Counted from the first letter of the stretch, positions 26,682 to 49,691 are shown. The stretch: DNA of 50,006 bases from a bacterium (GCA_016930535.1 JAFGGN010000117.1:1-50006), one strand, 5' to 3'. The notes: generated by a model not told the origin, from the letters alone. Translations and numbers: made by a program.

Positions 26682-26724
26682 TCAGACACCTCCGGGATGT
26701 CCCGGGGACCTCCCGGAGGTGTCT
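26682..26724. repeat. Palindromic element P1 (cagacacctccggga-N13-tcccggaggtgtctg)
   Basis: Perfect 15-bp inverted arms with a nested gtccc/gggac palindrome. Same motif as P2, P3 and P4. Confidence 0.8.
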
Positions 26725-26731
26725 GTTTTAG

Positions 26732-27331
26732 TCAAATTCCCCGCAGCCGGTCCTGATAGGCCTTTAACATTTTGTCCCTTGCCCCGGGGTCCGACAGCAC
26801 GGACCGTTTCGCTTCCTGATATTCGTTTTCATCGATTGTGGTGAACGGCGTTTCACGCCAGTATTTCGTTTTCAGAAAGGTCCGGCGGCATTCATGGCAG
26901 GCACTCCAGGTCTGCAGATGCGCATGGATCATATAATGTGGTGCCGATCCGCTTCGCCTCTCCTTATCATCACTGTACAGAAAACCGTCCGCACCTCTGT
27001 ATCCCCCGACGAGGTCGTACTGCATCACCTGCTTCCATTGTTCATGCGTATACTGTACATCCAGCATCTCCATCGGCCGGCCGCAACGGCTGCACCTGGC
27101 GCGGCCCTTTGCGACTTTCAGTACGATATACACCGTAAACAGGACCATAAATCCGAAGAACAGACCCATGACAGCCGTCTTCCCTGACTTCAGGAAAAAG
27201 AGCGCGGCCACGGCAGCGGACAGGCATAAAAACGAAAGCCAGCCGATAATCCGGGGAAGCAGTGCGGACCGGGATCCGGCTTCTTCGTCGTACCGGTAAT
27301 CGCTCAATTCGGGTGGTGGATTTATTCTCAT
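26732..27331 (-). CDS. Hypothetical membrane protein with zinc-ribbon-like Cys pairs (CSRCGRP ... CHECRR)
   Basis: Start MRINPPPEL with a strong RBS ggagg. The longer N-terminus in the ORF track reads through repeat R5 and was trimmed. Two TM helices followed by a CxxC...CxxC domain. Confidence 0.6.
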   Translation of the reverse strand: MRINPPPELSDYRYDEEAGSRSALLPRIIGWLSFLCLSAAVAALFFLKSGKTAVMGLFFGFMVLFTVYIVLKVAKGRARCSRCGRPMEMLDVQYTHEQWKQVMQYDLVGGYRGADGFLYSDDKERRSGSAPHYMIHAHLQTWSACHECRRTFLKTKYWRETPFTTIDENEYQEAKRSVLSDPGARDKMLKAYQDRLRGI

Positions 27332-27371
27332 GACGTTTGCCTCCGTATTATACTGTATCATTATTTTATGA

Positions 27372-27630
27372 ATGGACGGCGGACCGCTGACCGTGAATGC
27401 TTCGGAGAACCGGAGACGCGGTGAAACGGTGATGTTAAAAACAGACAACTGACGGCGGACCGCAAACCGCTTGACATGGACGGCCAAGACGGCCGTCTTT
27501 AAAAAAACTCTGCGTCCTCTGCGCCTCTGCGGTTATCTCTTCATTCAACATTCAAAATTTAACATCGTTATTTCTCCGTTACTCCGTCGCTCCTTCTCTC
27601 CGTTTCACGCTCCGACACGACGACCGGCTT
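27372..27630 (+). repeat. Mosaic repeat element R5
   Basis: ggcggaccgctgacc, then gtgaatgcttcggagaaccggagacgcggtgaaacggtgatg, then ccgcttgacatggacggccaagacggccgtc, then ctctgcgtcctctgcgcctctgcg, then ttctccgttactccgtcgctccttctctccgtttcacgctccgacacgacgacc. Confidence 0.85.
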
Positions 27631-27646
27631 TCTTTGAATTTTTATC

Positions 27647-28753
27647 TTATCGTCTGCCCAGATAATCATCCCATATTTCCAGTATTTCAGGGATGTTCCT
27701 TCTTCCGAATCCGATCCGGACACGGTTCTCCTGGCTGCCGAAAAGCGTGGACGGCACCAGCATGATGCCTTTCTGTTCGAGGAGATCCTGACAGAAATCG
27801 TCGATGGAACCTTCGGTCCGCACTTCGGGGAAGGCAACGGGGCCCGCATGCGGCCTTTGCCACACGAACCGGTCCGGATATTTTCCGAAAAAACTGTCCA
27901 GTGTTTTCAGATTGGTCATGATGATACCGAGATTCCGCCGTATCAGCTTCTCCTTGTTTTTCAGTGCGATCAGGGCCAAAATTTCACTGGGTCCGCTGCT
28001 GCATATGGTGGTATAATCCTTGAATGCCTGCAGGGCCGTCATCATCGCTCCGTCCCGCGTGGTGAGCCATCCGATTCGCAGGCCGGGCAATCCGAAAGTT
28101 TTGGACATGCCGGACAGGGAAATGCCCTTTTCATAAATATCCGCGACAGACGGGAGGCGATGTGCGTCTTTATACTCCAGATAGCGGTACATCTCATCCG
28201 AGAAAACACGGATATCATGCTTCCGGGCCAGTTCGAGGATCCGGTCCAGTTCATCCCGGGAAATCATGGTTCCGGTCGGATTGTGCGGGAAATTGAGAAC
28301 CAGGAGGCGCGTTTCCGGCGTTATCAGGCGGACCAGATCGTCGGTCACAAAACGGTTTCCGTCACGCGGCATCCAGGCGGACACATTCGCGTTCAGGCTT
28401 CGCGCGATTTCATGCAGAGATTGATAACACGGGAAAACCGTCACCAGATGATCTCCGGCCTTGAGCAGCACGTTCATGGCGATAAATATGCCTTCTTCCG
28501 GCGCCAGCACCAGCACATCGTCCGGTGTGACCGCATGATAGAGCCGCGTGATCTCCTCACGGAGAAGCGGATGCCCCTGCGATTCCGTATATGCGAGCCG
28601 GAGATTCCCCCACAGTGAGAGGGATTCCGCGTCCGCCATGCCGAGCAGTTCCTTCAGGGTCAGCGGCTCACAGTCCGAACAGCTCAGCAGATGCGGTGCC
28701 GAGAATTCGTGGACGGCAAAGTATCGTTCGAGTTTGAATGGTTCGATGCGCAT
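27647..28753 (-). CDS. PLP-dependent aminotransferase, class I/II fold
   Basis: 368 aa. Lys-containing motif SGMSKTFGLPGLRIGW. The N-terminus MRIEPFKLERYF is typical of this aminotransferase subfamily. Confidence 0.8.
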   Translation of the reverse strand: MRIEPFKLERYFAVHEFSAPHLLSCSDCEPLTLKELLGMADAESLSLWGNLRLAYTESQGHPLLREEITRLYHAVTPDDVLVLAPEEGIFIAMNVLLKAGDHLVTVFPCYQSLHEIARSLNANVSAWMPRDGNRFVTDDLVRLITPETRLLVLNFPHNPTGTMISRDELDRILELARKHDIRVFSDEMYRYLEYKDAHRLPSVADIYEKGISLSGMSKTFGLPGLRIGWLTTRDGAMMTALQAFKDYTTICSSGPSEILALIALKNKEKLIRRNLGIIMTNLKTLDSFFGKYPDRFVWQRPHAGPVAFPEVRTEGSIDDFCQDLLEQKGIMLVPSTLFGSQENRVRIGFGRRNIPEILEIWDDYLGRR

Positions 28754-28862
28754 GCGCTCTGTCTTTATGATGAATGGATTGTCGGATTGTTCGTGATGCG
28801 GACCCGGTTAAAAATGGTGGATATTTCAGACAAAGTCAAGGGAAAAGGACGGCATTGAATCG

Positions 28863-29168
28863 GTGTATGGGTTTACGGGTTTATGGGTTTATGAGTATAT
28901 GGGACCCTGCCTCCCTGCCCCTGTAAATAATTGACCGCGGACGGCAAGACCGCGGACCGCAAGAGAAATACCAAATCTCAAATCCCAAAATACAAATAAA
29001 AAACAAATTTCAAATTACAAATTCAAAATAGGACCTCAGACGGCGGACCGTAGACCGTTAAAGCTTCGGAGAGACGGAGAAGATGAGAAACGGAGAAAAA
29101 AACAGCTTTTCTTACTCTCCGTTTCCCCGTTTCTCAATCTCTCCGCTTCACACTCCGACACAACGACT
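28863..29168 (+). repeat. Mosaic repeat element R6
   Basis: gtWtaYgg octamers, gaccgcR heptamers, ~60 bp of caaat-period repeats, ggaccg units, left arm aagcttcggagagacggagaagatgagaaacggagaaaaaaa, right arm tctccgtttccccgtttctcaatctctccgcttcacactccgacacaacgac. Confidence 0.85.
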
Positions 29169-29180
29169 CATTAAACTTTG

Positions 29181-30290
29181 TTAATCCTGCTCCCGAATGA
29201 ACGCATCCAGCGCCTCGACAAATCTCTGGTTCTGGTCCTCCGTGCCGACCGTGATGCGCAGACAGTTTGGCAGATTGTAATTCTCCACCGGGCGCGTGAT
29301 GAATCCCCTTTCGAGCAGGGCCTGATATAAGGGCGCGGCCGGTTTTTCAAAATCCGCGAGAATGAAATTGGTCTGGGAGGGATAGTATTTGATCTGAAGC
29401 CGTTCGAATTCCGCCTGAAGAAATGCCCGTCCCTTCCGGTTGATTTCAATGGATTTTTCGATATGCTCCTGATCGTCCAGCGCGGCCAGGGCCGCGGCCT
29501 GGGCCATGCGGTTGACATTAAAAGGCGGCCGTACGCGGTCCATGTACCCGATCAGCTCCCTGTGCGACACACCGTATCCCACACGAAGCCCGGCCAGCCC
29601 GTATATCTTCGAAAATGTGCGCAACACGATCAGGCGGTTGCGGTACGGTGCGTACTCCAGGCCGTTGGGCACGTCCGGATCGTCCACGTATTCCGCATAG
29701 GCCTCGTCGATGCAGATTACGATATCGTCGCGTATGTGTGACAAAAACCGCTCGAATTCCCGCGTGCTGAAAATCCGGCCCGTCGGATTGTTGGGATTGG
29801 CCAGGAACACCACCTTGGTTTTTTCATTCACGGTACATGCCACGGCATCCATATCGTAGGTCATGTCCGGTTTCAGGGGAACCGTGATCTCCTGCCGGTT
29901 GTGAGAGATCCCGGCCAGTTTGTAGATGATGAACGACGGCTCTCCGGTCACGATGTTTTCGTTCGGAGCCACGAAGGTCCGTATGACGAATTCGATGATC
30001 TCGTTGCTTCCGTTGCCGATGATCAGGTTGTGCGGTTCGATGTCATATTGCGCCAGATGGGCGGCCAGCGCCTCCTTCAGCGTGTAGCAACCGCCGTCCG
30101 GGTAATAATGCATTTCCCCGCACGCGGCCTTCATGGCCTCGATCGCCTTCGGGGACGGTCCCAGGGGATTTTCATTGGAAGCCATCTTCACCGGGTCGGG
30201 AAGGCCCAGCTCGCGCTTGGTTTCTTCGATCGGCTTGCCCGGCTGATAGGGCCGTAATTTTTCGATATTGCGCGTGACCAGCGGTTTCAT
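29181..30290 (-). CDS. hisC: Histidinol-phosphate aminotransferase
   Basis: 369 aa. KLASNENPLGPSP-type N-terminus (MASNENPLGPSP). PLP-lysine motif FSKIYGLAGLRVGY. Length and motifs are typical of HisC. Confidence 0.85.
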   Translation of the reverse strand: MKPLVTRNIEKLRPYQPGKPIEETKRELGLPDPVKMASNENPLGPSPKAIEAMKAACGEMHYYPDGGCYTLKEALAAHLAQYDIEPHNLIIGNGSNEIIEFVIRTFVAPNENIVTGEPSFIIYKLAGISHNRQEITVPLKPDMTYDMDAVACTVNEKTKVVFLANPNNPTGRIFSTREFERFLSHIRDDIVICIDEAYAEYVDDPDVPNGLEYAPYRNRLIVLRTFSKIYGLAGLRVGYGVSHRELIGYMDRVRPPFNVNRMAQAAALAALDDQEHIEKSIEINRKGRAFLQAEFERLQIKYYPSQTNFILADFEKPAAPLYQALLERGFITRPVENYNLPNCLRITVGTEDQNQRFVEALDAFIREQD

Positions 30291-30304
30291 GATTCACTCC
30301 TGAT

Positions 30305-33300
30305 TTACTTGAGTAATAACACCTTGATGGTTGACCCGATACGGACCGATTCCGCCCGGACCAGGTACACACCCGATTCGCAGGATCTGGAAAACCGGTC
30401 CGTGCCGTCCCACAGCATCATGCATGCTCCGGATTCGTCCGTGTTCTGTTTCAATGTCCTTATTTCCCGCCCCAGAATATCGTGGATATGCACGCGGACG
30501 GATTCATATCTGCCTGCCCGGAGCCGCAGCATCACCCGCGTATTGAACGGATTGGGGAATGCCGTCAAACCAAAGGACTCCGGCATGCCCGCCTGATAAA
30601 GGCCGGTTCCGGCGTCCCTGCCAAGAATGCGGCCGTCAAATGGCGGAATGATGACGGATTCAACGATCCCCCCATGATTCACCGACGGATCCTGAACGCC
30701 CGCCAATGCCCTGTAAGGCGTTTCCAACAGCACTTCAGCCGGTTCTTCCGACGGGTTGACCAGGGCGATGCCGTACTCGAAATCCCTTCGCCATACGGGC
30801 TCGCCGCCCTCCTCGATCCGGATATCGTCCAGCACGATCCCGCCGTCCTGCCTGATTCCGAAAATGAGGTAGTAATCGTCATGAGAGCCGGTTTTAAATA
30901 CGCTGCTCAGCGAATCCGCCATGCCGGTTTCCGGATCCCAGGTTCTGGACCACACATCGGTAAAATCGTTCCCCGTGCCGGACCGGACAATCGCATAAAA
31001 ATACCCGGCATCCGCTTTTTCAAGAACACGGTATTTCCATGAAATGGAATAACGCGTGTCCGTTTTAAAATGTATCTTTTCCGTATCAGACCAGACGAAT
31101 TCATTCCATATACTGGATTGATCGGGATTCTCCGCTTTCAGACTCGCGGTTCCGGCAATCACCTCGGCCGGATCCTGCGTGATCCGCGCCAGAGCGTTCC
31201 ATGGAGGAGAAATAAATGTATTCAGGTTCCCGGTTTCGAAACCTTCGTCCATGCGAAGGATCCCGGAATTCAGGGGGCGTGCCGCACCATCGGGTTTACC
31301 CAGATCGAAATCGTATTCGTCGTACCACCAGTCATGGCCCCACCAGGTGGTTCCGAAATCGTAGCTGTACAGCCCGTCCCCCATCAGAGCCGAGCACAGG
31401 CCGAAACGCATGCGGTCATACCGGGTTCTGACCCATTCCACGGTATCTGCAGGACAGGTATTCCAGGGATTCATGCCGTACACGCTCCACATCCAGTCCG
31501 GCCCCTGGCCCGTCATCAGGGGAAGCGCCCAGGGCGGCCGGTGCAGATCCGTCCAGGCCCGGTACTCCTCGATGAAAGGCCTGAACTCGGCCCGGCCCGC
31601 ACTGATCCCGTTCAGGCCCATTTCAAACAGCCGCCCGTGCATGTACGGCGCGTACCGGTGAATGGCGTCGTTGCCGCAGATCACGGCATTGGGCGCCCCC
31701 TCCCGGATCCGTTCCAGCAGCGACAGCACGCCTTGCTGCCAGGCTTCCTGGATGGTGTCGTGATCGTCCCCCAGTCCGTCCTGATCGATGTCGATGTTCC
31801 GGTCCCCGAGCGCGCCGTTCCACATCCAGAACACGTTTCCCTGAACCCGGTCGAAATACATGCCGTCATAAACCAGGCAGTCTTCGCTCCATCTTTCCAG
31901 TATCCGTTCCGCCATATAGGCCACGCAGGCGGGATTGGTCAGGTTGTACATGGTATGACCCCAGTATCCTTCGTAGAGGATGTGGTTCCGGGGATCACAG
32001 AGCACGCAGTTATACAGCGGATCGGACGGATCGTGTGCGGCTTCCTGAAAAACCGCGTCCTCGGATCCGCCGTATGAAAAGGAATATGAAACGAGCGCCT
32101 TCAGATCCGGATTGATGCGCCGGGCCGCGAACACATCGGCCTTCGGGAAGGATCCGATCACAAGATCATATTTGGCCATGTCCGCAGGGATGTTCACGCT
32201 TGTCCTGTAATTCCACCACAGGGCGAATATACGCGGAAAATCCGGATCATAATCCAGCATTTTCCGCCGGTTGAATACGCGTGAAACGGGCCACGGATCC
32301 GTCGAAGAGTCCGGTTTGCAGCGGACCGTCCATGAAAGGGGATGATCCGGATCGGCGGGCCATGCGAATTCATGCACGGTTCCGCCTTTCGCCGTCACCG
32401 GGAATGCCAGATCGGGATAAGGCCGGTCGGACGTATCGCAGCGGCACAGGGCCGGAACATCCGTATTCACACGGATGACCATGTCATGCTGATCCGGAAG
32501 CAGCACATCACTTGTTATACCGGAGACCGTGACCGGATGCGGAACCGCGCTGCGCGGTCCCGCGGCAGTTTCTCCGGACCATGCGGATCCGTTATAGGTG
32601 CGGATAAAGCAGGCAACCTGGTCCCCGGCCTGAAAATGCGCCGGATCCAGGGCCGCATCCATGTTCCTGTCCGGATATAAATACAGGGCCCGGATCTCGA
32701 ACTCCCCGAGCGGCCGGCTGAATATCCTGAATTCGTCGATCGTGGCATAGGCATTGGGCCCCGCCCACACGCCGCAGCCGATGAGAAACAGGCTCCCCTC
32801 ACCGACTGGCGGATCATAGGCCCGGTTCGCCGAAACACAACGTCCGTCCAGATAAAGCTGCTGGATGTCTTTGGTTGCATCCCATGTCCACACCAGATGA
32901 TGCCAGTCCCCGGCTTCGAGCGGCATGGATGCGGTCCAGGTGCCGTAATAGGTCCCGCCGGTCTCGCTCACGCCCGTAAACTGGTTCCCGTCTTTACTGG
33001 CTTCGATATACAATGCGTTGTCATCGTCGATTCGGTACTCGAACAGCCGGTTCCACTGATCGTACACCGCATGGCCGATATCGAAATCCAGGGCGAACCA
33101 CAGGGACACGGATCCCGAAAGTACGGAGATGACGCCTGCCGGGGAATATCCGAAATGGGCAAAGCATTCCCCGATATGACCGCCCTGCCCGAAACGGCCC
33201 GGAACCACTTCGACGCCCAGCAGGTCAACGGGTGACCTCTGCCTCCTGGAGGTCAATCCGTCCTCGAAATCGAGCCGGAACGTCTCCGCTCCGGTTCCCA

Positions 33301-33493: not shown

Positions 33494-33583
33494 AATCGCA
33501 CCCGGTCAATGATCCGCATCTGTTCAATCCTCTTTCATTATAAACGGAAAGCCTGTGAATGTCAACAGGGAATTTATGGTATC

Positions 33584-33625
33584 TGACACCTCCGGGAGGT
33601 CCGGGTGGACCTCCGGGAGGTGTCA
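33584..33625. repeat. Palindromic element P2 (tgacacctccgggaggtcc-gggtg-gacctccgggaggtgtca)
   Basis: Two copies of acctccgggaggt flanked by tgac/gtca in near-perfect dyad symmetry. Confidence 0.8.
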
Positions 33626-33921
33626 GGCACAATCGCGGAAAATTCCCGCATTTCCGCATTTGACTGTTATATGTACGACATGAAATTACCGAGAGAACAG
33701 CCTTCTAATATTTTGTTTTTTAATTGCTTGAATGCTGCGCAATTCCTATGGCACGCCGCTTGCCTGAATCTGAACAGCAAGCGCATACCCCGCTGCTTTC
33801 GGCGGGGTAAACGAGCGAATACAAATTATTTTCACACATTACAGATGAAGATTTCCCGTGGCCTGCCGCGGGGAGATTCATTCCCGGGAAATAAACAGAA
33901 ACACGACAGAAGGGAGCAGCA

Positions 33922-36249
33922 ATGAAGTATCTGATGAAAGCGGTGATATTCATGATTTGTATCTCAGCTTTTTCGATCCGGGCCGGCGCATTGACGCAGC
34001 TCGTCCGGGGGCAGGTGATGGACCAGGAAACCCGGACGCCGCTTTACGGGGCGAATGTGATGATCGCGGGCACGAATCTCGGCGGCTCGACCGATGAAAA
34101 CGGATGGTTCCGGATTTCCGGGGTTCCCCTCGGCCGGTATGATATCCAGGTATTTTATATGGGATACGAACAGATGACGATTCCCGAGATTCCCGTGCAT
34201 TCGGGCAAAGAGGTGGTTCTCAACGTTGAAATGCGGGAATCCGTCATTTATACGCAGGCACTCACGGTCATGCCCTCGATCGACAAGGAAAAACCCCTGA
34301 ACGCCATGGCCACCACCAGCGCCCGCACATTTTCCGTGGAAGAGACACGCCGTTATGCGGGCGGACTGGACGATCCGGCGCGCATGGCATCCGGTTTCGC
34401 GGGCGTGACCACGGGCCAGGTGCAGGACAACGCCATCATTATCCGCGGCAATGCGCCCAACGGCATTCTCTGGCGGCTGGAGGGCATCGAGATCCCCAAT
34501 CCCAACCATTTCGCGGACGGCAATTACGACGGCGGCGGCCTGGTGACCCTGTTCTCGAGCCAGCTCCTGGACAATTCCGATTTCATGACCGGCGCCTTCC
34601 CCGGTGAATACGGCAATGCGCTGTCCGGCGTATTCGACATGAATCTGCGCAACGGCAACAACGAGCAGCACGAATACGCGTTCCAGGCCGGCATCCTGGG
34701 AATCGACGTTGCAGCCGAGGGGCCGTTTCAGAAGGGCAGTCCGGGTTCTTATCTCTTCAATTACCGCTACTCGACCACGGCGCTTCTGACGCCGATTCTG
34801 AATACGGAACAGATTCCCAAATATCAGGACCTCTCATTCAAGCTGAACTTTCCCACGCGCCAGGCGGGCACATTCAGCCTGTGGGGCATCGGCGGCGTGG
34901 ACACGAACCTGGAATACGCCAGCGACGATCCGGACGACTGGACCATAGACTGGGAACGGATCGGATACGAATGGAAGGCCCGTGTCGGCGCCGCGGGTCT
35001 GACCCATAAAATCACAACCGGGGACAATACCTACATCAGCACGACCCTGGCCTCCACGGCCAACAAGGTTTCTTTTCATCAGGAGCGGTATGACGACAGG
35101 CTGGAGCTGCAGAAGGTGCAGTGGATCGACAGCGAGACGGGCAAACACACGCTCTCTGCATTCGTGAACCACAAGTTCAATGCACGGTACGCGAACAAAA
35201 CGGGTGTGGCCGTGAACTATCTCTTCTACGATCAGAATTTCCGGGCCGCACTCGACAATGTACCGCCCATGCGGTCGTATATCCGTGAAAGCGGGGGCGA
35301 TTTGCACACCCAGACCTATTCACAATCCTCCCTGCGCATCACGCAGGACCTGACCCTGAATCCCGGACTGCATTTCGAGTTCTTTCATCTCAACCGCCAT
35401 TTCTCGGTGGAACCGAGAATCGGCCTGCAGTATGCGTTCAAACCCGGCCAGAGCCTGTCCCTGGCATACGGCATGCACAGCCAGCTGCCGGACATCCGCG
35501 TGTACCTGACGCGAGGGGAAAACGGCATCCCCGTCAACCGGGACCTGGATTTCATGAAGGCGCATCATGTGGTCCTCGCCTATGACCGGAGCCTCACGGA
35601 AAACGTGCGCCTGAAAATCGAGCCGTATTTTCAGGCCCTGTCCGATGTGCCCGTGGTACGGGACAGCAGCTATTCGTTCGCGAATTTCAAGTCCCAGTGG
35701 TTCTTCGATCATCCGCTCGTGAACGGGGGTACGGGAAGGAACGCGGGCATCGACATCACACTGGAGCGTTTCCTGAACAACAACTATTATTATCTGCTGA
35801 CCGCCTCTGTTTTCAGCTCGAAATACACGGGCGGGGACGGTGTCGAAAGAAACACGCGCTACGCCCGGAACCTCGTCCTGAACGCCCTGTTCGGCCGCGA
35901 ATTCCACATCGGCCGGAACAACGTGCTGGGCCTGAACGGCCGGTTCACGGCCATGGGCGGCGAACGGCGCAGCCCCGTGCATCTCCCGCTCACGCAGGCC
36001 AGGCAGGAGATCGTGTACGACGAAACCCGTGCGTTCGAGATGCAGAATCCCACGTCCTATGTGCTGGACCTGACCCTCACCTGGCGGATCAACCGGAAAT
36101 CCGTGTCCCATGTCTGGGCCCTGCAGGTGAAGAACGCCCTGGGAGCCAGAAGCATCAACGAACCGAGTTACAACTGCCTCACGAATATGGTTGAAAAAGA
36201 CTACGACACCATCGTTCTGCCGTCGCTGAGTTACAAGGTGGAGTTTTAA
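33922..36249 (+). CDS. TonB-dependent receptor with N-terminal carboxypeptidase-regulatory-like domain
   Basis: 775 aa with signal peptide. CarbopepD_reg-like segment (GQVMDQETRTPLYGANVMIAGTN...TDENGWFRI). Plug and barrel. C-terminal ...YKVEF. Confidence 0.85.
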   Translation: MKYLMKAVIFMICISAFSIRAGALTQLVRGQVMDQETRTPLYGANVMIAGTNLGGSTDENGWFRISGVPLGRYDIQVFYMGYEQMTIPEIPVHSGKEVVLNVEMRESVIYTQALTVMPSIDKEKPLNAMATTSARTFSVEETRRYAGGLDDPARMASGFAGVTTGQVQDNAIIIRGNAPNGILWRLEGIEIPNPNHFADGNYDGGGLVTLFSSQLLDNSDFMTGAFPGEYGNALSGVFDMNLRNGNNEQHEYAFQAGILGIDVAAEGPFQKGSPGSYLFNYRYSTTALLTPILNTEQIPKYQDLSFKLNFPTRQAGTFSLWGIGGVDTNLEYASDDPDDWTIDWERIGYEWKARVGAAGLTHKITTGDNTYISTTLASTANKVSFHQERYDDRLELQKVQWIDSETGKHTLSAFVNHKFNARYANKTGVAVNYLFYDQNFRAALDNVPPMRSYIRESGGDLHTQTYSQSSLRITQDLTLNPGLHFEFFHLNRHFSVEPRIGLQYAFKPGQSLSLAYGMHSQLPDIRVYLTRGENGIPVNRDLDFMKAHHVVLAYDRSLTENVRLKIEPYFQALSDVPVVRDSSYSFANFKSQWFFDHPLVNGGTGRNAGIDITLERFLNNNYYYLLTASVFSSKYTGGDGVERNTRYARNLVLNALFGREFHIGRNNVLGLNGRFTAMGGERRSPVHLPLTQARQEIVYDETRAFEMQNPTSYVLDLTLTWRINRKSVSHVWALQVKNALGARSINEPSYNCLTNMVEKDYDTIVLPSLSYKVEF

Positions 36250-36283: not shown

Positions 36284-36322
36284 GTTACCTCCCAGGGAGC
36301 TCCAAGCTCCCTGGGAGGTAAC
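36284..36322. repeat. Palindromic element P3a (gttacctcccagggagct-cca-agctccctgggaggtaac)
   Basis: Perfect 18-bp inverted arms. Same core as the P4 right half. Confidence 0.8.
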
Positions 36323-36342
36323 TGTCTTCCCTCTGTCACGAT

Positions 36343-36376
36343 CCCCCGTTCTGCCAGGCAGGGCGGGGGATTTTTC
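36343..36376 (+). terminator. Rho-independent terminator after the TonB-dependent receptor gene
   Basis: GC-rich hairpin cccccg...cggggg followed by ATTTTT. Confidence 0.6.
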
Positions 36377-36377
36377 A

Positions 36378-36404
36378 TTCAGACACCTCCGGGAGGTGTC
36401 TGAA
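36378..36404. repeat. Palindromic element P3b (ttcagacacctcc-g-ggaggtgtctgaa)
   Basis: Perfect 13-bp arms. Same core as P1, P2 and P4. Confidence 0.8.
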
Positions 36405-36406
36405 TC

Positions 36407-36694
36407 CTATGACGTAAAAATCGCATTAAGATAGAAGAACAGAACGAAAAGGCAGGTAAAAAATATCAACAGCAACAAAAGAGCGATGTAAAACAACCTG
36501 ACCGGACTATTCCTTTCGAGACCGATTAATTCGATGATATTTTCAATGTCCTGAAAATGATTCCAGAAACTGATTTTATAATCATTCATATGACAAATCG
36601 TTTTTATGATATAACCGATAACAATGGCAGGTACAGCCGCATAGGTTATATTTTCAAAATGACTGAAAAACAGGATCAAATCAATTATAAGCAT
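36407..36694 (-). CDS. Hypothetical small membrane protein encoded in a low-GC islet
   Basis: About 95 aa, start MLIIDLILFF. Two or three hydrophobic helices. Local GC is roughly 35% against about 57% for the surroundings. Overlaps the upstream gene's stop by 14 nt. Confidence 0.45.
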   Translation of the reverse strand: MLIIDLILFFSHFENITYAAVPAIVIGYIIKTICHMNDYKISFWNHFQDIENIIELIGLERNSPVRLFYIALLLLLIFFTCLFVLFFYLNAIFTS

Positions 36695-37358: not shown

Positions 37359-37485
37359 TCAGCATATAGTTACAGCAAGGCAAGTTAGAGCTTTATATAT
37401 ATTATTCACGGCAAATAAAAAGATCAGGACGCGACAACGGAATCCGCTGCCGCTGCGTCCTGATCTTTAAAATGCATTCCCGCGC

Positions 37486-38907
37486 TTATTTCGCGTCTTT
37501 GTCTTCCGGTTCTTTTTTCGGATCCTTTTCTGAAGGTGCCGTTTCTTCCGCTTTTTTCCGGAACTCCGCTTCGATGGTATCGCCCAGGATGGCCGGCAGC
37601 TTGATGCCTGACATTTCCGCGAATTCCTGCAGGCCGGGCAGGGCTTTCACCACGCTGGAAAGCCAACTGGCCGTGGTGGAGGTGCCGTTTGGCCCACCCA
37701 TGCCGTCCATGACCACGACCTTGTCGAACTTGATGCTGCTGATGGCCTTGGTCTGCGCTTCCACGATGGCGGGCAGCTGTTCCACGATGAGCAAGGTGGC
37801 TGCCTTGTCGGGATTACCGCCAGCCGCCTTCACGATCTCTTTCAATCCTTCGGCTTTCTTCTGAAGCACAGCGAGGATACCCGCGGCCTGACCTTCCATT
37901 TCCTTCTGAATGGCAAGTCCTTTTCCTTCCCCTTCCCGGGTCAGACGCGCTTTTTCCGCCTCCGCCGCTTTCTCGATTTTTTGCCGTTCCACATCGGCCG
38001 GAACCACAACATGAATTTCCTGCGTGATCTGCTCTTTCTTCTTCCGTTCGGACTCGGCTTTCTGTTCGGATTTGTAGGAGGCCTCGAGCGCTTCGGCCGC
38101 CTTGATTTTTTCCGCGGAGATGGCCCGTTTTTCCGCATCGGCCACGTTCTCCCGTCTGTCGGCATGTGAATTGGCCTTCTGGATCTCCGCCAGATTTTCT
38201 CCTTTCACGGCTTCTGCCTCGGCTTTGGCCACGTTCACGCGTTTTTCCTGGTCCGCATTCGCTTTTCCGGTCTCTCCATCGCGTTCCTGCTTGGCTACTT
38301 CAATTTTCGCCTTATTGATGGCCTCGGCGGCCGCTTTTTTGCCCAGGGCTTCGATGTACCCGGATTCGTCATTGATATCCGTAAAATTGACGTTGATCAG
38401 ATACAGACCGATCTTATTCAGCTCGGATTCGACATTATCCATGACTTTTTTTTCAAATGCTTCCCGGTCCGCATTGATGGATTCGATTTCCATGGTGGCC
38501 ACGGTTGCACGCAGCTGCCCGAAAATAATGTCCCTGGCCAGTTCTTCGATCTGGCTAGGTTTGAGGCCGAGAAGCCTTTCAGCCGCATTGATCATTATCG
38601 TCGGTTTCGTGGAGATACCGAATGTAAACCGGGATGGAATATCGATACGGATGTTTTGATTCGACAGCGCCTTGGTCAGATTGATATCCGTGGTCATGGG
38701 AGTCAGATCAAGAAATTCATAGGCCTGCACCAGCGGCCATACGAATGTCGCGCCCCCGTGAATCGGCAAGGCGGACTTGTCCTTGCCCACGTTTCCGTAC
38801 TTGACCAGCACTTTATTGGACGGGCATTTCTTGTAGCGTGCGGCTGCACTCAAGAACAGGATAAATACAATCAATGCCAGCGCGCCAACCAGGGTCAACG
38901 AATACAT
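37486..38907 (-). CDS. floT: Flotillin / SPFH (band 7) domain protein (FloT/YqiK-like)
   Basis: 473 aa. N-terminal TM helix, SPFH domain, long Ala/Glu/Lys-rich coiled coil (EAEAVKGENLAEIQKANSHADRRENVADAEKRAISAEKIKAAEALEA). Confidence 0.85.
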   Translation of the reverse strand: MYSLTLVGALALIVFILFLSAAARYKKCPSNKVLVKYGNVGKDKSALPIHGGATFVWPLVQAYEFLDLTPMTTDINLTKALSNQNIRIDIPSRFTFGISTKPTIMINAAERLLGLKPSQIEELARDIIFGQLRATVATMEIESINADREAFEKKVMDNVESELNKIGLYLINVNFTDINDESGYIEALGKKAAAEAINKAKIEVAKQERDGETGKANADQEKRVNVAKAEAEAVKGENLAEIQKANSHADRRENVADAEKRAISAEKIKAAEALEASYKSEQKAESERKKKEQITQEIHVVVPADVERQKIEKAAEAEKARLTREGEGKGLAIQKEMEGQAAGILAVLQKKAEGLKEIVKAAGGNPDKAATLLIVEQLPAIVEAQTKAISSIKFDKVVVMDGMGGPNGTSTTASWLSSVVKALPGLQEFAEMSGIKLPAILGDTIEAEFRKKAEETAPSEKDPKKEPEDKDAK

Positions 38908-38942
38908 ACAGCACCTCCTGTCATCTGAACTCTATTTTCGAT

Positions 38943-39560
38943 TTATTGTTTTATTTTCTCGACAACCAGCAGGTCGTCCGACAGCCGGACCACCCGAACC
39001 TGCTGACCCCGCCGAAGTTCAGGCCCTTCCGTTACTGCTTCCAGCTCCATTAGCCGCCCCTGAAAGGTGATGCGCACTTTTCCCTGTCCCTGCATTCCGG
39101 CGGGAATTATAATCGAAACGGTGGCGCCTTTTCCCACCGCCTGCGCCAGTGAAATATTACCGCTGCTTTTCAGCCTGGAGAGGCCGATCATGATCGACAT
39201 CACAACAGCGACGAACAGCATCCCCACCAGAACGCTGCACACGATCACGAGCCACAGCGGCATGCCCCTGTCCAGGCATCCCAGCCCGGTCCATGAAAAT
39301 CCCATGAAAAACGCAATCATATTGCGTACCGTAAAATAGCCCACGAACGGATTTTCATGCGAATGCTCCCCTGCGTGGTCCGAATCGGCATGGCCGTCCG
39401 TTCCGTCACCCGTGTCCGCATCGGAGTCCGAGTCGCTCCCGTGATCACCCAGCCCGAGAATGGTCATCAGTGCCTGCAACAGAAACAACACGGTCGAGAA
39501 CACAGCGAGCCCCCAGAAAAACTTCTGGGCCGCGATCAACGAATCCCACCATTCCTGCAT
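38943..39560 (-). CDS. nfeD: NfeD-family membrane protein (flotillin partner) with C-terminal OB-fold
   Basis: Start MQEWWDSL with RBS aggagg. Membrane helices, Asp/Ser/His-rich loop, C-terminal beta domain (GKGATVSIIIPAGMQGQGKVRITFQGRLMELEAV). Immediately upstream of the flotillin gene. Confidence 0.7.
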   Translation of the reverse strand: MQEWWDSLIAAQKFFWGLAVFSTVLFLLQALMTILGLGDHGSDSDSDADTGDGTDGHADSDHAGEHSHENPFVGYFTVRNMIAFFMGFSWTGLGCLDRGMPLWLVIVCSVLVGMLFVAVVMSIMIGLSRLKSSGNISLAQAVGKGATVSIIIPAGMQGQGKVRITFQGRLMELEAVTEGPELRRGQQVRVVRLSDDLLVVEKIKQ

Positions 39561-39780
39561 AAGATGATCCTCCTGATAAGTGGATGGTCGGTTGACCTGC
39601 ATCCATCCGATTGCCCGAATGATTACCCTTGTGATGTGATTATATTCAAGATGATTGTTTTAATTAAAGCAATAAAATTAAAAATAAAAAGGATTTCTTG
39701 ATTTTTAAAATATTTTATACCAAGTTTCATCTGGTGCCGGTTTAAAAAATTGTTCAATTTCAGGGCAAGCCCCAATCGAC

Positions 39781-39860
39781 TCTATCTCTGCTTACTCCGG
39801 TCCTCTGCGGTAATCCTTCTTTGGTCTTTGGTCTTTGTTCTTCAATCTTTAACCTTGCCC
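39781..39860 (+). repeat. Solo fragment R7 of the mosaic family (ctctgcg module plus ctttggt heptamers)
   Basis: ctctatctctgcttactccggtcctctgcgg followed by ctttggtctttggtctttgttcttc. No arms present. Confidence 0.6.
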
Positions 39861-39874
39861 TGCAGGGATCACCC

Positions 39875-41032
39875 TCATTTTTTTCCGGCAATTTTATTCA
39901 GCATATCCATGGGCGGTTCATCCACCGCGATCAGATACATGCTGTCATCCTGTTTTAAAATATAATCGTTCGGATAATCCTTTTTTTGCGGATTGGTGAT
40001 CCATTGCTCTTTCATCCTGAATTCGGGTTTTCCGTCCCCGCCGATGATTTCCGAGCCGTCCTCATCCTGCTTGGGTACCAGCACTTTCGTCTCCACACCA
40101 ATGAGAATGATACTCTCGTCCAGCAATGTTTTTGCGGCATCCTTGAAACCTCTCCCGACAAATCCTTCCGGTACTTTCTTTTTATAAAACTCGCTGCCCG
40201 AGTTGAATTCAAGGAGCTCGTTCAGCACATTGGAAAGCCCGTGATTCAGGGCCGAAGCGACCATCAGATTCCCGCTCATGTGATCCAGGCAGATGGTCTC
40301 ATCCACATGCACGCGCTCCAGGTGCTTTTTAAATTCCGAATTTTTCAGCTGGACGCATGTATATACATTGCGGTTCAGTGATTCGATGGCAAGCGTGATC
40401 AGCAGCGCCTGCGCATCCGGATTCGCTCCCTTCTCAGCAAGCCTGTCGAACTCGGTCAGCACGATTGCCGTATCGGCCTTCAATATGCCGGCCCGTTTCA
40501 GGTCCTCCTCCCTGCAGGGATCTCCGGAAATAAAATCCACCCGGTCCTCATCCACGGGCCGTTTCTCCAGATTGGCCAGAATCACGATCGGACGCTTTTC
40601 AGCGATATCGGGTGAAAGCAGCTGAGCCACAATATGCCTGCCCTGCGAATTCCAGCCGCATATGATAATATGATTCGAATAATCCACGCGTTTCATGATC
40701 CGGCCTCCTTTTATCGACAGATCCACATAGAATGTGACAATCTGGGCCCCGACAATGGCAATAAAACCGACCCCTGCAATCAGGCCGACAGTCATCGCAA
40801 GCCTGGCCAGGCTGCTGTCCCATTCCAGATCTCCCAGTTCACCCATGAAGAGTATAAACACCTTGGTCAGGGCTTCAAAAAAACTGATATCCACCTCAAG
40901 GGCGATGATGCTCGAACACAGCAGGATCAGGAACACGGATATGCTCAACGTGATCCATATGGGATACCGGTAAATCTTGTTCACCAAAAATTTCGACGCC
41001 CTTTTAAATCCAGACCGTGTCAGTTCCATCAT
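39875..41032 (-). CDS. Two-TM ion channel with cytoplasmic RCK (TrkA-N) domain (MthK-like architecture) and atypical selectivity filter
   Basis: TM1, pore helix FFEALTKVFILF, filter MGELGD instead of TVGYGD, TM2, then a Rossmann HIIICGWNSQGRHIVAQL RCK domain. Confidence 0.7.
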   Translation of the reverse strand: MMELTRSGFKRASKFLVNKIYRYPIWITLSISVFLILLCSSIIALEVDISFFEALTKVFILFMGELGDLEWDSSLARLAMTVGLIAGVGFIAIVGAQIVTFYVDLSIKGGRIMKRVDYSNHIIICGWNSQGRHIVAQLLSPDIAEKRPIVILANLEKRPVDEDRVDFISGDPCREEDLKRAGILKADTAIVLTEFDRLAEKGANPDAQALLITLAIESLNRNVYTCVQLKNSEFKKHLERVHVDETICLDHMSGNLMVASALNHGLSNVLNELLEFNSGSEFYKKKVPEGFVGRGFKDAAKTLLDESIILIGVETKVLVPKQDEDGSEIIGGDGKPEFRMKEQWITNPQKKDYPNDYILKQDDSMYLIAVDEPPMDMLNKIAGKK

Positions 41033-41365
41033 TTTACCTCATGATTTGAAACATTTCCATCAATCCGCAATCCTGCGCCGGCTGCCCCTGCCTGTTTCAG
41101 CCGGACATGACAAATATCGGATGCGTGAGATACGGCATCCCGGCTGTACTCATGGTCCCGGTACAGATACACCCGGGATACACATCGAATGTCCAGCGCA
41201 GCCCGCAGTCCGTCATTCGGAATTTCTCTTGTTGTGTAAAAAAAATGAGTCACATAGACAGAACCGGCCGGTTACATGACCCACCATCGGGAAGTTGCCT
41301 TAATGATAGCAGAATTAAAAAAATATAGGGATATAATTTAGAAATTTCAATAGACTTTTTAGAAA

Positions 41366-41508
41366 TGACCGCGGAGGGCGGACCGCTGACCGAAAATGCT
41401 TCGGAGAAACGGAGAAGATGAGAAACGGTGATATTAACCGCAGACCGCAGACCGCTGACCGCTGACCGTGAATGCCTCGGAGCGACGGAGAAGATGAGAA
41501 ACGGAGGG
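41366..41508 (+). repeat. Mosaic repeat element R8 (two tandem left-arm modules, no right arm)
   Basis: gaccgcggagggcggaccgctgacc-gaaaatgcttcggagaaacggagaagatgagaaacggtga, then accgcagaccgcagaccgctgaccgctgacc-gtgaatgcctcggagcgacggagaagatgagaaacggag. Confidence 0.8.
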
Positions 41509-41535
41509 AATGGGACATGATATAAATCCGGCCGG

Positions 41536-41841
41536 TTATTTCTTCTCCACCAGCTGCCCTGTTATATATTTGTGAAGCACGCTTTTTACAAATGTCTGAT
41601 ATTTCAAACCCTGATGCCGGGCGTATTGTTTTATCCTGTCCAGTTCCTCGGGATGGATACGGATATTCATTTTCGTTTCATTTTTCAGATGCTCTTGTGC
41701 TGCCGCCCTGAACGCCTTCTGCATTTTTTCCGAAGGTCTGCGCAGCCGGGATGGATCGATTGAATGGATCGCTTTATCCAGATCCCTCTCTTCTTCATCA
41801 AGATATTTTATATGTTCGTCATTCATGGTTTTGATCCTCAA
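41536..41841 (-). CDS. brnA: BrnA-like antitoxin (C-terminal ribbon-helix-helix)
   Basis: 101 aa. C-terminal RHH MNIRIHPEELDRIKQYARHQGLKYQTFVKSVLHKYI. Overlaps the upstream toxin gene by 23 nt. Confidence 0.65.
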   Translation of the reverse strand: MRIKTMNDEHIKYLDEEERDLDKAIHSIDPSRLRRPSEKMQKAFRAAAQEHLKNETKMNIRIHPEELDRIKQYARHQGLKYQTFVKSVLHKYITGQLVEKK

Positions 41842-42097
41842 TTAAATATTTAAATTTTCTGGACGGGAAAATGGTCTTTAAAAACAATCTTTCGCCCTTT
41901 TTGATATAGGGTACGCAAAAAGGATAATTATTGATACTGACGACAAGGATTCTCTGATCCGGGTATTTTTTATTATTCGGATGTTCAAAATCAAGCAGGA
42001 TCCCATTTTCGGAGATCGATTTGATCACATCGATGAAAGTGACACCTCTTTCATTAAAAAGCTGTTCATTCTTTTCCGGACTGTATTCGAAAACCAT
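41819..42097 (-). CDS. brnT: BrnT-like toxin (DUF497 / COG2929 ribonuclease toxin)
   Basis: 92 aa. N-terminus FEYSPEKNEQLFNERGVTFIDV fits the BrnT pattern W/F-D/E-x-x-K-N-x-x-N-x-x-K/E-H/R-G-V-S/T-F-x-E/D. C-terminal LVVS...ERLFLKTIFPSRK resembles the conserved RIISARKA segment. Confidence 0.6.
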   Translation of the reverse strand: MVFEYSPEKNEQLFNERGVTFIDVIKSISENGILLDFEHPNNKKYPDQRILVVSINNYPFCVPYIKKGERLFLKTIFPSRKFKYLIEDQNHE

Positions 42098-42102
42098 ACA
42101 GG

Positions 42103-42131
42103 AATATAAAGTTTTGTGCGCACAATGTCAA
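42103..42131 (-). promoter_or_regulatory. Sigma-70-type promoter for brnTA (TTGACA-N17-TATATT) with a perfect palindromic operator in the spacer; leaderless transcript
   Basis: Minus strand reads TTGACA (42131-42126), spacer aagttttgtgcgcacaa... (contains the 12-bp perfect palindrome ttgtgcgcacaa, 42114-42125), then TATATT (42108-42103). The ATG lies 5 nt after the -10, so the predicted TSS is at or next to the start codon. Confidence 0.6.
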
Positions 42132-42147
42132 CACCTGAAAATCGGTT

Positions 42148-42206
42148 GACACCTCCGGGAGGTCCTTCGCACTTATCTCCCAGGGAGCTTCAAGCTCCCT
42201 GGGAGA
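42148..42206. repeat. Palindromic element P4 (gacacctccgggaggtc plus tctcccagggagctt-c-aagctccctgggaga)
   Basis: Both palindrome types of family P are adjacent here, as at 36284-36404. Confidence 0.8.
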
Positions 42207-49688: not shown

Positions 49689-49691
49689 ATG

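What the first reader, a model, noticed from the sequence alone, without database searches (positions are those of the whole stretch)
26682..42206. Second intergenic family: perfect palindromes GACACCTCCGGGAGGTGTC and CTCCCAGGGAGCT(Y)CAAGCTCCCTGGGAG at four loci
P1 26682-26724, P2 33584-33625, P3 36284-36322 plus 36378-36404, and P4 42148-42206 share two palindrome types with 12-18-bp perfect arms. The two types sit side by side at P3 and at P4. They occupy the intergenic gaps that lack an R element, so between families R and P almost every gap above 100 bp is populated. A perfect dyad of this size is a REP-like signature and may be a target for a REP-associated tyrosine transposase (RAYT)-type or IS200-like enzyme. 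It could also act as an mRNA-stabilising hairpin. It might even be a preferred insertion site for family R. P4 abuts the brnTA promoter. P3 flanks the low-GC islet.
Basis: seen in the sequence. Interest (0 to 1): 0.6.

Follow-up and report, generated by a model that had tools for sequence, protein, structure and literature searches.

The report
Small REP-like intergenic hairpin repeat family
Four gaps between genes in this contig from an uncultured bacterium carry closely related GC-rich DNA palindromes that can fold into very stable hairpins; they resemble the "REP" repeats known from many bacteria, so they are a fairly ordinary kind of element, although whether they are spread across the whole genome could not be tested.

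Summary
The palindromes are real and lie at the stated coordinates (within 1 nt). They are far beyond chance: the 13-mers occur 7 and 4 times against 0.04 and 0.03 expected. They occur only in intergenic DNA, which is 10% of the window. The two "types" are related subfamilies. Each unit is an odd palindrome (ACCTCC-S-GGAGGT or CTCCC-W-GGGAG). Units are usually arranged as a tight inverted doublet with a 1-4 nt spacer, giving 18-21 bp hairpins of -38 to -44 kcal/mol. P3b looks like a collapsed doublet, and the type-1 copy at P4 is a solo arm.

The anatomy fits REP/REPIN-like repeats best. P1 and P3 lie 3-35 nt after stop codons, as REPs usually do. P2 and P4 lie between divergent genes, 19 and 16 nt upstream of the only two near-perfect sigma-70 promoters in the 50 kb. 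That placement is atypical for REPs and keeps a protein-binding-site reading alive.

There is no GTAG or CGTC tag, and no RAYT, IS200-like or other transposase gene in the window. Genome-wide abundance could not be tested: the window is the only sizeable sequence of this deep lineage that I could reach, and the public scans were swamped by unrelated matches or found nothing. Verdict: probably a new, small, lineage-specific REP-like family. Interest is modest.

The parts
26683..26725 (.). P1: type-1 inverted doublet (CAGACACCTCCGGGATGTCCC-G-GGGACCTCCCGGAGGTGTCTG). It is intercistronic, 8 nt after the stop of the 199-aa gene (26732-27331, minus strand) and 21 nt before the ATG of the DUF4405 gene (26439-26660, minus strand).
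   Evidence: I6: 21-nt arms, 95% complementary; -38 kcal/mol, z -6 to -8
33583..33626 (.). P2: type-1 inverted doublet (CTGACACCTCCGGGAGGTCC-GGGT-GGACCTCCGGGAGGTGTCAG). It lies between divergent genes. Its proximal end is 19 nt upstream of the -35 of a 12/12 sigma-70 promoter on the minus strand.
   Evidence: I2; -41 to -44 kcal/mol
36284..36322 (.). P3a: type-2 inverted doublet with perfect 18-nt arms and a CCA loop. It starts 35 nt after the stop of the TonB-dependent receptor gene (33922-36249, plus strand).
   Evidence: I8; -39.7 kcal/mol
36377..36405 (.). P3b: single perfect type-1 palindrome (ATTCAGACACCTCC-G-GGAGGTGTCTGAAT), interpreted as a collapsed doublet. It lies 3 nt (two intervening bases) beyond the stop of the 33%-GC 95-aa ORF (36407-36694, minus strand).
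   Evidence: I14; -20 kcal/mol
42148..42165 (+). P4 type-1 solo arm (GACACCTCCGGGAGGTCC). Its GGTGTCA end is 16 nt upstream of the -35 of an 11/12 sigma-70 promoter that drives the leaderless toxin-like gene 41819-42097 (minus strand).
42172..42210 (.). P4 type-2 inverted doublet (perfect over 42176-42206, TCA loop), 6 nt from the type-1 arm.
   Evidence: (I9)
36340..36376 (+). Context, not part of the family: a canonical intrinsic terminator (15-bp stem plus T-run) between P3a and P3b. It shows that the organism uses ordinary terminators and that P hairpins are something additional.
33537..33565 (-). Context: sigma-70 promoter TTGACA-17-TATAAT (12/12) adjacent to P2.
42103..42131 (-). Context: sigma-70 promoter TTGACA-17-TATATT (11/12) adjacent to P4. 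Its spacer holds its own palindrome, TTGTGCGCACAA.

Best explanation
P is a small, lineage-specific family of REP-like repeats (repetitive extragenic palindromes in the broad sense) with two related subtypes.

Anatomy (shown):
- The basic unit is an odd palindrome: ACCTCC-S-GGAGGT in type 1 and CTCCC-W-GGGAG in type 2, each with short flanks.
- The usual form is a tight inverted doublet of two units separated by 1-4 nt. Each strand can therefore fold into an 18-21 bp hairpin, or the duplex can extrude a cruciform. This is a miniature version of a REPIN (a REP doublet that forms a hairpin).
- P3b is a doublet collapsed to a single long palindrome, for example by slippage between the two 13-nt direct copies.
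- The type-1 copy at P4 is a decayed solo arm.

Function (inferred): where transcribed, the hairpin most likely acts at the RNA level, as shown for E. coli REPs.
- P1 lies between two co-directional genes. P3a and P3b lie just after the stop codons of convergent genes.
- In those positions a hairpin blocks 3'-5' exonucleases and so stabilises the upstream message. It may also partly attenuate read-through into the downstream gene.
- With stems of about 20 bp it could also be an RNase III site.

Spread (inferred, not shown): copies probably arose by a copy-and-insert process that leaves no target-site duplication, either Y1-transposase-like or recombinational.

P2 and P4, which lie upstream of promoters, are then insertions tolerated in the only free DNA between divergent transcription units, possibly co-opted for another role.
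For: - The copies are non-random and strictly extragenic. Motif counts are 7 and 4 against 0.04 and 0.03 expected. All four loci lie in the 10.3% of the window that is intergenic, giving about 1e-4 for four independent placements.
- The hairpins are very stable: -38 to -44 kcal/mol for the doublets, z -6 to -8.5.
- The arms of both types align around a shared ACCTCC core.
- The four doublets share an 18-bp consensus hairpin in which 10 of 18 pairs change on both sides and stay paired. Examples are CAG/CTG in P1 against CTG/CAG in P2, and GTTAC/GTAAC in P3a against cTTAT/AcAAg in P4. Pairing, not just sequence, is therefore kept.
- Position fits published REP statistics. REPs lie mostly between unidirectional or convergent ORFs, close to 3' ends (under 20 bp for those between convergent ORFs), and some dimers have partners only 1-5 bp apart (PMC3733652). 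P1 is 8 nt, P3b 3 nt and P3a 35 nt after a stop codon.
- REP doublets form hairpins, singlets are decayed doublets, and deletion between the two REPs gives one long palindrome (PMC3116915). This matches P3b and the P4 solo arm.
- Dual stabiliser and attenuator action of an intercistronic REP has been shown in E. coli (bioRxiv 10.64898/2026.03.23.713779).
- Caldithrix abyssi, from a phylum among the nearest named relatives of the window proteins, has a REP-like 18-nt palindrome with the same nested design: AAC-C-GTT, a 2-nt spacer, AAC-G-GTT (PMC5317091).
- The 66%-identical sister lineage has a different perfect GC hairpin without a T-run, starting exactly 35 nt after the orthologous receptor gene's stop.
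- No Rfam family matches any P locus.
Against: - Only four loci, within 15.5 kb, are known, and none lies in the first 26 kb of the window. High genome-wide copy number, a defining REP property, is untested.
- Two of the four loci lie between divergent genes, which is rare for REPs.
- There is no GTAG or CGTC tag, and no Y1 transposase or any other transposase in the 50 kb.
- Independent Logan contigs from the same sample run straight through P1, P2, P3a and P3b, but break in the R repeats. These copies therefore have no twin elsewhere in the sample identical over 31 nt or more. That argues against a large, homogeneous, recently active population.
- The exact type-2 pattern is absent from the metagenome and viral collections.
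- No expression data exist.
Confidence: 0.5

Rival explanations
1. The inner palindromes are DNA binding sites for a dimeric protein, such as a class-I-type activator, a repressor or roadblock, or a nucleoid protein. Alternatively they are cruciform 'supercoil sinks' that act on neighbouring promoters. Doublets would be two sites about two helical turns apart.
For: - The only two sigma-70 matches of 11/12 or better in the whole 50 kb lie 19 nt (P2) and 16 nt (P4) downstream of the GGAGGTGTCA end of a type-1 arm, in the same relative orientation. The expected number of such matches is 0.33, and P(2 or more) is 0.045.
- This puts the inner palindrome centres at about -64 and -85 for P2 and about -61 for P4.
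- Every locus keeps at least one intact 13-bp inner palindrome.
- The inner sites are 20-21 bp apart in the type-1 doublets.
- An unrelated Acidobacteriota contig has two copies of GACACCTCCSGGAGG in the intergenic region upstream of an ECF sigma gene.
Against: - P1 has no room for a promoter: it is 21 nt from the ATG and 8 nt after the upstream stop. P3a and P3b lie between convergent gene ends.
- The distance to the -35 differs by 3 nt between P2 and P4, which puts the sites on different helix faces.
- Spacing of the inner sites is 18 bp in type 2 but 20-21 bp in type 1.
- Complementarity extends to outer flanks that differ between copies and change in a compensatory way. A hairpin needs this; a dimer site does not.
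- No transcription-factor gene lies near the cluster, apart from the antitoxin, whose promoter has its own operator-like palindrome.
- At P4 the adjacency to the promoter is nearly forced by the 188-nt gap.
Confidence: 0.2
2. The hairpins are locus-specific RNA structures, such as U-tract-less terminators, RNase III processing sites or 3'-end protectors. They evolved in place and look alike only because of shared constraints, so they are not a dispersed repeat family.
For: - The sister lineage has a different hairpin at the same offset after the orthologous gene.
- The stems are long enough for RNase III.
- P1 and P3 are certainly within, or at the ends of, transcription units.
Against: - Identity of 13-23 nt across four loci cannot arise by convergence.
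- P2 and P4 lie upstream of promoters, where no transcript end is expected.
- P3a is followed 18 nt later by a canonical terminator, so it is not needed for termination.
- No P hairpin has a proper U-tract on the strand of an upstream gene.
Confidence: 0.12
3. The elements are remnants of a DDE-type insertion sequence or MITE: back-to-back terminal inverted repeats left after internal deletion.
For: The doublets are essentially two 18-21 nt inverted repeats with almost nothing between them. A solo arm exists at P4.
Against: - No target-site duplication flanks any copy.
- At 39-43 nt they are well below MITE size.
- Each arm is itself a palindrome, which is unusual for terminal inverted repeats.
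- No transposase gene is in the window.
- There are no matches in the plasmid or viral collections.
Confidence: 0.06

Closest known systems
REP / REPIN elements of Pseudomonas and Enterobacteria (Bertels & Rainey 2011, PMC3116915)
   Same: - Short GC-rich extragenic palindromes.
- Inverted doublets that fold into one long hairpin.
- Singlets that look like decayed doublets, and collapse of a doublet into a single long palindrome.
- Several related sequence groups in one genome.
   Different: - The spacer is 1-4 nt, against about 20-100 nt in most REP dimers, so a whole doublet is only 39-43 nt.
- The units are perfect odd palindromes rather than imperfect ones.
- Copy number is unknown, with four loci seen.
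- No RAYT is known.
- Two of the four loci lie between divergent genes.
GTAG- and CGTC-tagged REP superfamilies (Di Nocera et al. 2013, PMC3733652)
   Same: - Intergenic stem-loop repeats.
- Head-to-head dimers, some with partners only 1-5 bp apart.
- Hybrid dimers made of different families.
- Placement within 20 bp of ORF 3' ends, as for P1 and P3b.
   Different: No conserved GTAG or CGTC tetranucleotide at either end: the flanks are CWGAC in type 1 and KTTAY in type 2. Half of the loci are 'div-REPs', a rare class in that survey.
Caldithrix abyssi 18-nt over-represented palindrome aAACCGTTgaAACGGTTt (Kublanov et al. 2017, PMC5317091)
   Same: - From a phylum among the nearest named relatives of the window proteins.
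- The same nested design: an inverted repeat of an odd quasi-palindrome with a tiny spacer.
- Intergenic, low copy number, shorter than classical REPs, function unknown.
   Different: - A different sequence that is absent from the window.
- AT-richer and half the length.
- Rarely found between divergent genes.
- Has a strand bias, which could not be assessed here.
E. coli BIMEs (mosaics of REP types Y, Z1 and Z2)
   Same: Two REP-like subtypes are juxtaposed at one locus (P4, 6 nt apart; P3, 55 nt apart). A known role is as an intercistronic mRNA stabiliser and partial terminator.
   Different: No conserved inter-REP linker motifs were seen. There are only two composite loci, and their arrangements differ.

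Membership tests
REP (repetitive extragenic palindrome, broad sense) | Short (about 20-60 bp) palindromic unit able to form a stem-loop | tested here: met
   Units are 18-29 nt and doublets 39-43 nt. Folding energies are -20 to -44 kcal/mol, z -5 to -8.5.
REP (repetitive extragenic palindrome, broad sense) | Extragenic location | tested here: met
   All copies lie in 4 intergenic gaps, and intergenic DNA is 10.3% of the window. The only genic near-matches are two 1-mismatch 11-mers at chance level.
REP (repetitive extragenic palindrome, broad sense) | Tens to hundreds of copies dispersed over the genome | not testable with these tools
   - Only this 50-kb contig of the organism is reachable.
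- The metagenome scans gave 0 hits or unrelated hairpins.
- Contig look-ups returned only sub-fragments of the window.
REP (repetitive extragenic palindrome, broad sense) | Preferentially between unidirectional or convergent ORFs, close to ORF 3' ends | tested here: inconclusive
   P1 (8 nt after a stop), P3b (3 nt) and P3a (35 nt) fit. P2 and P4 lie between divergent genes.
REPIN | Two REPs in inverted orientation that together form a hairpin | tested here: met
   P1, P2, P3a and the P4 type-2 copy are inverted doublets, but with a spacer of only 1-4 nt.
REPIN | A cognate single-copy RAYT (Y1 transposase) gene flanked by the repeats | tested here: not met
   No Y1_Tnp or other transposase domain was found in any ORF of the window. 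The rest of the genome could not be examined, so this holds only for the 50 kb.
GTAG/CGTC-tagged REP superfamilies | Conserved GTAG or CGTC tetranucleotide at one end of the unit | tested here: not met
   The alignment of all 11 arms shows flanks CWGAC (type 1) and KTTAY (type 2), with no conserved GTAG or CGTC.
BIME | Mosaic of distinct REP types in alternating orientation with conserved linker motifs | tested here: inconclusive
   The types are juxtaposed at P4 and P3, but the linkers differ: 6 nt at P4, against 55 nt containing a terminator at P3.
MITE / IS remnant | Terminal inverted repeats flanked by a target-site duplication, with a typical length of 50 bp or more | tested here: not met
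   No direct repeats flank any copy, and the length is 39-43 nt.
Intrinsic (Rho-independent) terminator | GC-rich hairpin followed by a U-tract on the strand of the upstream gene | tested here: not met
   - The scan lists the canonical terminator at 36340-36372 but no full P hairpin.
- The only P hit is the 5-bp inner stem of P1 on the plus strand, and both flanking genes are on the minus strand.
Transcription-factor operator / activator site | Palindromic site at a consistent position relative to the promoters of regulated genes | tested here: inconclusive
   P2 and P4 centre at about -64 (and -85) and -61 of strong promoters. P1 and P3 are not near any promoter.
Caldithrix-type 18-nt palindrome | Sequence nAACCGTTnnAACGGTTn | tested here: not met
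   There is a single 2-mismatch genic match, at chance level. Only the architecture is shared.

The most novel reading that the evidence does not exclude
The type-1 palindromes are functional modules upstream of promoters rather than passive REPs. A hairpin- or cruciform-forming protein-binding element would sit about 60 bp upstream of the strongest sigma-70 promoters of this lineage. There it would activate, or topologically insulate, divergent transcription units. The same module would be reused as an RNA hairpin when it lands inside transcripts. That would make it a REP-like family caught in the act of being co-opted for promoter control, in a deep uncultured lineage related to KSB1 and Calditrichota.
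Probability: 0.12. Interest if true: 0.6.

Novelty: new member of a known kind. Interest (0 to 1): 0.3.

Why it matters
If the family is genome-wide, it would add an untagged, unusually compact REP or REPIN-like family from a deep uncultured lineage related to KSB1 and Calditrichota, where such repeats are almost undescribed. The only near precedent is the Caldithrix abyssi 18-nt palindrome. It would also raise the question of what mobilises it, given that no GTAG or CGTC tag is present.

On the practical side, the elements mark transcription-unit boundaries on this contig and could serve as strain-typing markers. The link to the two strongest promoters is a cheap, testable lead on promoter architecture in this lineage. 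Otherwise the finding is an ordinary kind of bacterial intergenic repeat.

Tried and rejected
- **Metagenome scans.** The type-2 26-base pattern gave 0 hits.
- **Viral and plasmid searches.** They returned nothing or chance-level matches, so a phage or plasmid origin is rejected.
- **Attempts to sample more of the same genome.**
  - Exact-protein look-ups returned only Logan contigs from the same run, and these are sub-fragments of the window or gave nothing.
  - Two protein searches with concatenated chimeric queries returned nothing, not even self-hits. These were spurious ORFs from the R repeats and 12 lineage-specific window proteins. I treat this as a tool limitation, not as evidence.
  - A candidate in-genome paralogue, P0015, turned out to belong to another MAG.
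- **A 55%-identical relative (L247).** It has no GC-rich palindromes, so this is not a phylum-wide habit.
- **Restriction-site avoidance.** CCWGG and CCSGG are at their Markov expectation, so a link to restriction-modification is rejected.
- **Known RNA families.** Rfam gives no match at any P locus.
- **'Insertion site for R'.** No R words occur in P gaps, and no P cores occur in R gaps.
- **P4 as the antitoxin operator.** This is unlikely. The promoter has its own palindrome, TTGTGCGCACAA, between -35 and -10, and P4 lies at -50 to -115.

Full report
**Observation.**
- ACCTCCGGGAGGT with up to one mismatch occurs at 26688, 26708, 33588, 33609, 36385 and 42151, plus palindromic reverse-strand matches. 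The expectation is 0.04.
- CTCCCAGGGAGCT occurs four times, as two inverted pairs at 36289/36305 and 42177/42193. The expectation is 0.03.
- Relaxing to the 11-nt cores with one mismatch adds only two chance-level genic near-matches. It adds nothing in the first 26 kb.
- A gene map built from codon-usage-scored ORFs, and confirmed by independent gene calls on Logan contigs, puts all copies in four intergenic gaps.
- Intergenic DNA is 10.3% of the window. Four independent placements there have a probability of about 1e-4.

**Anatomy.**
- Type 1 is built from the arm (C)WGACACCTCC-S-GGAGGTCC. Its centre, ACCTCC-S-GGAGGT, is itself an odd palindrome.
- P1 (26683-26725) and P2 (33583-33626) are inverted doublets of this arm with 1-4 nt between the arms. 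Each has one uncompensated mismatch: T/C in P1 and the central G.G in P2.
- P3b (36377-36405) is a single perfect 14+1+14 palindrome. It equals a doublet from which the inner repeat has been deleted.
- The type-1 copy at P4 (42148-42165) is one arm only.
- Type 2 (P3a 36284-36322; P4 42172-42210) is an inverted doublet of KTTAYCTCC-CWG-GGAGCT with a YCA loop.
- An alignment of all 11 arms shows that the two types share the ACCTCC core. I read them as related subfamilies.
- RNA folds give -38 (P1), -41 to -44 (P2), -40 (P3a), -20 (P3b) and -31 to -44 kcal/mol (the P4 region), with z-scores of -4 to -8.5.
- Across the four doublets RNAalifold finds an 18-bp consensus stem in which 10 of 18 pairs differ on both sides yet remain paired. 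One example is A.T to T.A in the outer stems of P1 and P2. Others are C.G to T.A and G.C to C.G between the two type-2 copies. Any two palindromes show some of this by construction. Even so, it shows that each copy keeps its own arms complementary, including at positions that vary between copies.

**Context.**
- P1 lies 8 nt after the stop of a 199-aa gene and 21 nt before the ATG of a DUF4405 gene on the same strand. A Shine-Dalgarno sequence (AGGAGG) follows 8 nt after the hairpin, and there is no room for a promoter.
- P3a starts 35 nt after the stop of a TonB-dependent receptor gene. A canonical terminator follows at 36340-36372 plus a T-run. P3b lies 3 nt beyond the stop of a convergent 33%-GC 95-aa ORF.
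- P2 and P4 lie between divergent genes.
- The whole-window promoter scan finds only two sigma-70 matches of 11/12 or better. My own re-scan with 200 dinucleotide shuffles gives an expectation of 0.33 and P(2 or more) = 0.045.
- Those two promoters are TTGACA-17-TATAAT (33565-33537, minus strand) and TTGACA-17-TATATT (42131-42103, minus strand).
- They begin 19 and 16 nt downstream of the GGAGGTGTCA end of the P2 and P4 type-1 arms. This places the inner palindrome centres near -64 and -85 for P2, and near -61 for P4.
- The second promoter drives a leaderless toxin-like gene and has its own palindrome, TTGTGCGCACAA, in the spacer.
- The 'brnTA' label has only sub-threshold support.
- No ORF in the window has a transposase or Y1 domain.
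- Rfam finds only two tRNAs.

**Elsewhere.**
- The window is an entire 50,006-bp contig of an NCBI MAG labelled only '[bacterium]', and its receptor protein is MBN1782925.1.
- The closest homologue of that receptor is 66% identical. The next are about 55% identical, from KSB1, Calditrichaeota and Bacteroidales.
- Logan contigs from run SRR13394437 are 100% identical sub-fragments of the window. They give no new sequence and no variation.
- Those contigs assemble straight through P1, P2, P3a and P3b, but end inside R repeats. By inference, none of these P copies has a twin in the sample that is identical over 31 nt or more.
- The public scans were uninformative. The 18-mer coincides with the conserved uvrB coding motif. 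The type-2 pattern has no match in the metagenome or viral collections. The gapped type-1 pattern returned unrelated hairpins.
- The sister-lineage contig L246 is short, but it is informative in two ways.
  - Exactly 35 nt after the orthologous receptor's stop it carries a different perfect GC hairpin without a T-run: GTAGGGTGGGCC-AAC-GGCCCACCCTAC.
  - Its 5' end stops about 10 nt before a conserved motif (GCGGAAAWTYCCCGCRTTTCCGCATT) that in the window directly follows P2.
- A 55% relative has no such palindromes.

**Interpretation.**
- The combination of features is the anatomy of REP/REPIN elements as defined in PMC3116915 and surveyed in PMC3733652. The features are short GC-rich palindromes, strict extragenic placement, inverted doublets that form one hairpin, a collapsed doublet, a solo arm, two related subtypes sitting together, and no target-site duplication.
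- That survey also documents dimers whose partners are 1-5 bp apart. It places REPs mostly between unidirectional or convergent ORFs, close to 3' ends (under 20 bp for those between convergent ORFs). P1 and P3 fit this.
- A REP-like 18-nt palindrome with the same nested design is described for Caldithrix abyssi (PMC5317091). Its sequence is absent from the window.
- For the transcribed copies, the best-supported mechanism by analogy is the dual role shown for an E. coli intercistronic REP: protection of the upstream mRNA and partial attenuation of read-through. This step is inferred, not shown.
- Membership of the GTAG/CGTC superfamilies fails because there is no tag. A RAYT link therefore has no support.

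**Rival reading.**
- The promoter association of P2 and P4 is the main observation that a pure REP reading does not predict. It supports a DNA-level role in protein binding or topology, to which I give about 0.2.
- Several points argue against it. P1 and P3 are not near promoters. The offset to the -35 differs by 3 nt between P2 and P4. The inner spacing differs between the types. The outer-flank complementarity is something only a hairpin needs.
- Adjacency at P4 is nearly forced by the 188-nt gap.
- In-place evolved hairpins and IS remnants are less likely, for the reasons given under the rival explanations.

**Verdict.** This is a real, non-random, REP-like hairpin repeat family with two subtypes. 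It is probably a new lineage-specific member of a known kind, of modest interest. Its genome-wide extent and mobility are unresolved, and it carries one testable oddity: the promoter adjacency.

Noticed in passing
window 6874-6910, 9647-9978, 11935-12088, 18590-19044, 27362-27624, 28850-29167, 41361-41516, 49690-49763: Family R is a large composite repeat. It is built from short tandem oligomers, (TATGGGTW)n, (GACCGCNG)n and (CGGAGAAA/CGGAGAC)n, followed by their inverse (TCTCCGTTTC)n, which gives imperfect inverted arms. It fills many intergenic gaps. Logan contigs of the same sample end inside it (L001 at 29073; L250 at about 27424).
   Followed up: partly
window 33537-33565 (minus strand) and 42103-42131 (minus strand): These are the only two sigma-70 promoter matches of 11/12 or better in the 50 kb. 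Both lie 16-19 nt downstream of a type-1 P arm. The second would give a leaderless mRNA (ATG 5 nt after the -10) and holds the perfect palindrome TTGTGCGCACAA between -35 and -10, a likely antitoxin operator.
   Followed up: partly
window 33635-33660; L246 10-36: The motif GCGGAAA(A)TTCCC(C)GCRTTTCCGCATT upstream of the TonB-dependent receptor gene is conserved in the 66%-identical sister lineage. It is a candidate regulatory site for that gene. The sister contig ends about 10 nt before it, at the position where P2 ends in the window.
   Followed up: partly
L246 2543-2569: The sister lineage carries a different perfect GC hairpin, GTAGGGTGGGCC-AAC-GGCCCACCCTAC. It begins with GTAG, has no T-run, and starts exactly 35 nt after the orthologous receptor's stop. 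That is the same offset as P3a in the window.
   Followed up: partly
loci L010-L124 (for example L020 1606-1623): The 18-mer GACACCTCCGGGAGGTCC is the reverse strand of the coding sequence of the conserved UvrB helicase motif (...GLDLPEVSLV...). It therefore occurs once in a great many unrelated genomes. This is a trap for any genome-wide search with the type-1 arm.
   Followed up: yes
L077 2236-2318 (the same sequence in L184): An Acidobacteriota soil contig has two copies of GACACCTCCSGGAGG 64 nt apart, in the gap between a YCII-domain gene and an ECF sigma (DUF6596) gene. The core is the same as type 1, in an unrelated phylum. It could be coincidence, that organism's own repeat, or a binding site.
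   Followed up: partly
window 36407-36694 (minus strand): A 95-aa hydrophobic ORF with 33% GC, against about 53% for the contig. It has no Pfam or NCBIfam match and overlaps the end of the methyltransferase-like gene. It may be a foreign or spurious gene. It was called as a gene on the Logan contig L001.
   Followed up: partly
window 44900-44976 (minus strand): ARAGORN predicts a tRNA-Glu inside the RND pump gene 43403-46639. Rfam at its gathering threshold does not report it, so it is probably a false positive.
   Followed up: partly
window 9979-12036 and 12121-14034 (minus strand): Tandem paralogues, 72-82% identical at DNA level over long stretches. Each encodes two CBM9 domains plus a type IX secretion (T9SS) C-terminal sorting domain. 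Several other window proteins also carry this sorting domain, which suggests a polysaccharide-degrading organism of the FCB group type.
   Followed up: partly
window 5700-6010: A 54-nt (18-aa) tandem repeat, in 4-6 copies, lies inside the DUF4097 ('toastrack') gene 5265-6401, downstream of an ECF sigma / anti-sigma pair. A Logan contig (L245) ends here.
   Followed up: no
window 39802-39853 and 12074-12125: A short CT-rich tandem motif, (CTTTGGT/CTTTGTT)n, recurs in two intergenic gaps. The gap 39603-39874 is otherwise 37% GC and has neither R nor P.
   Followed up: no
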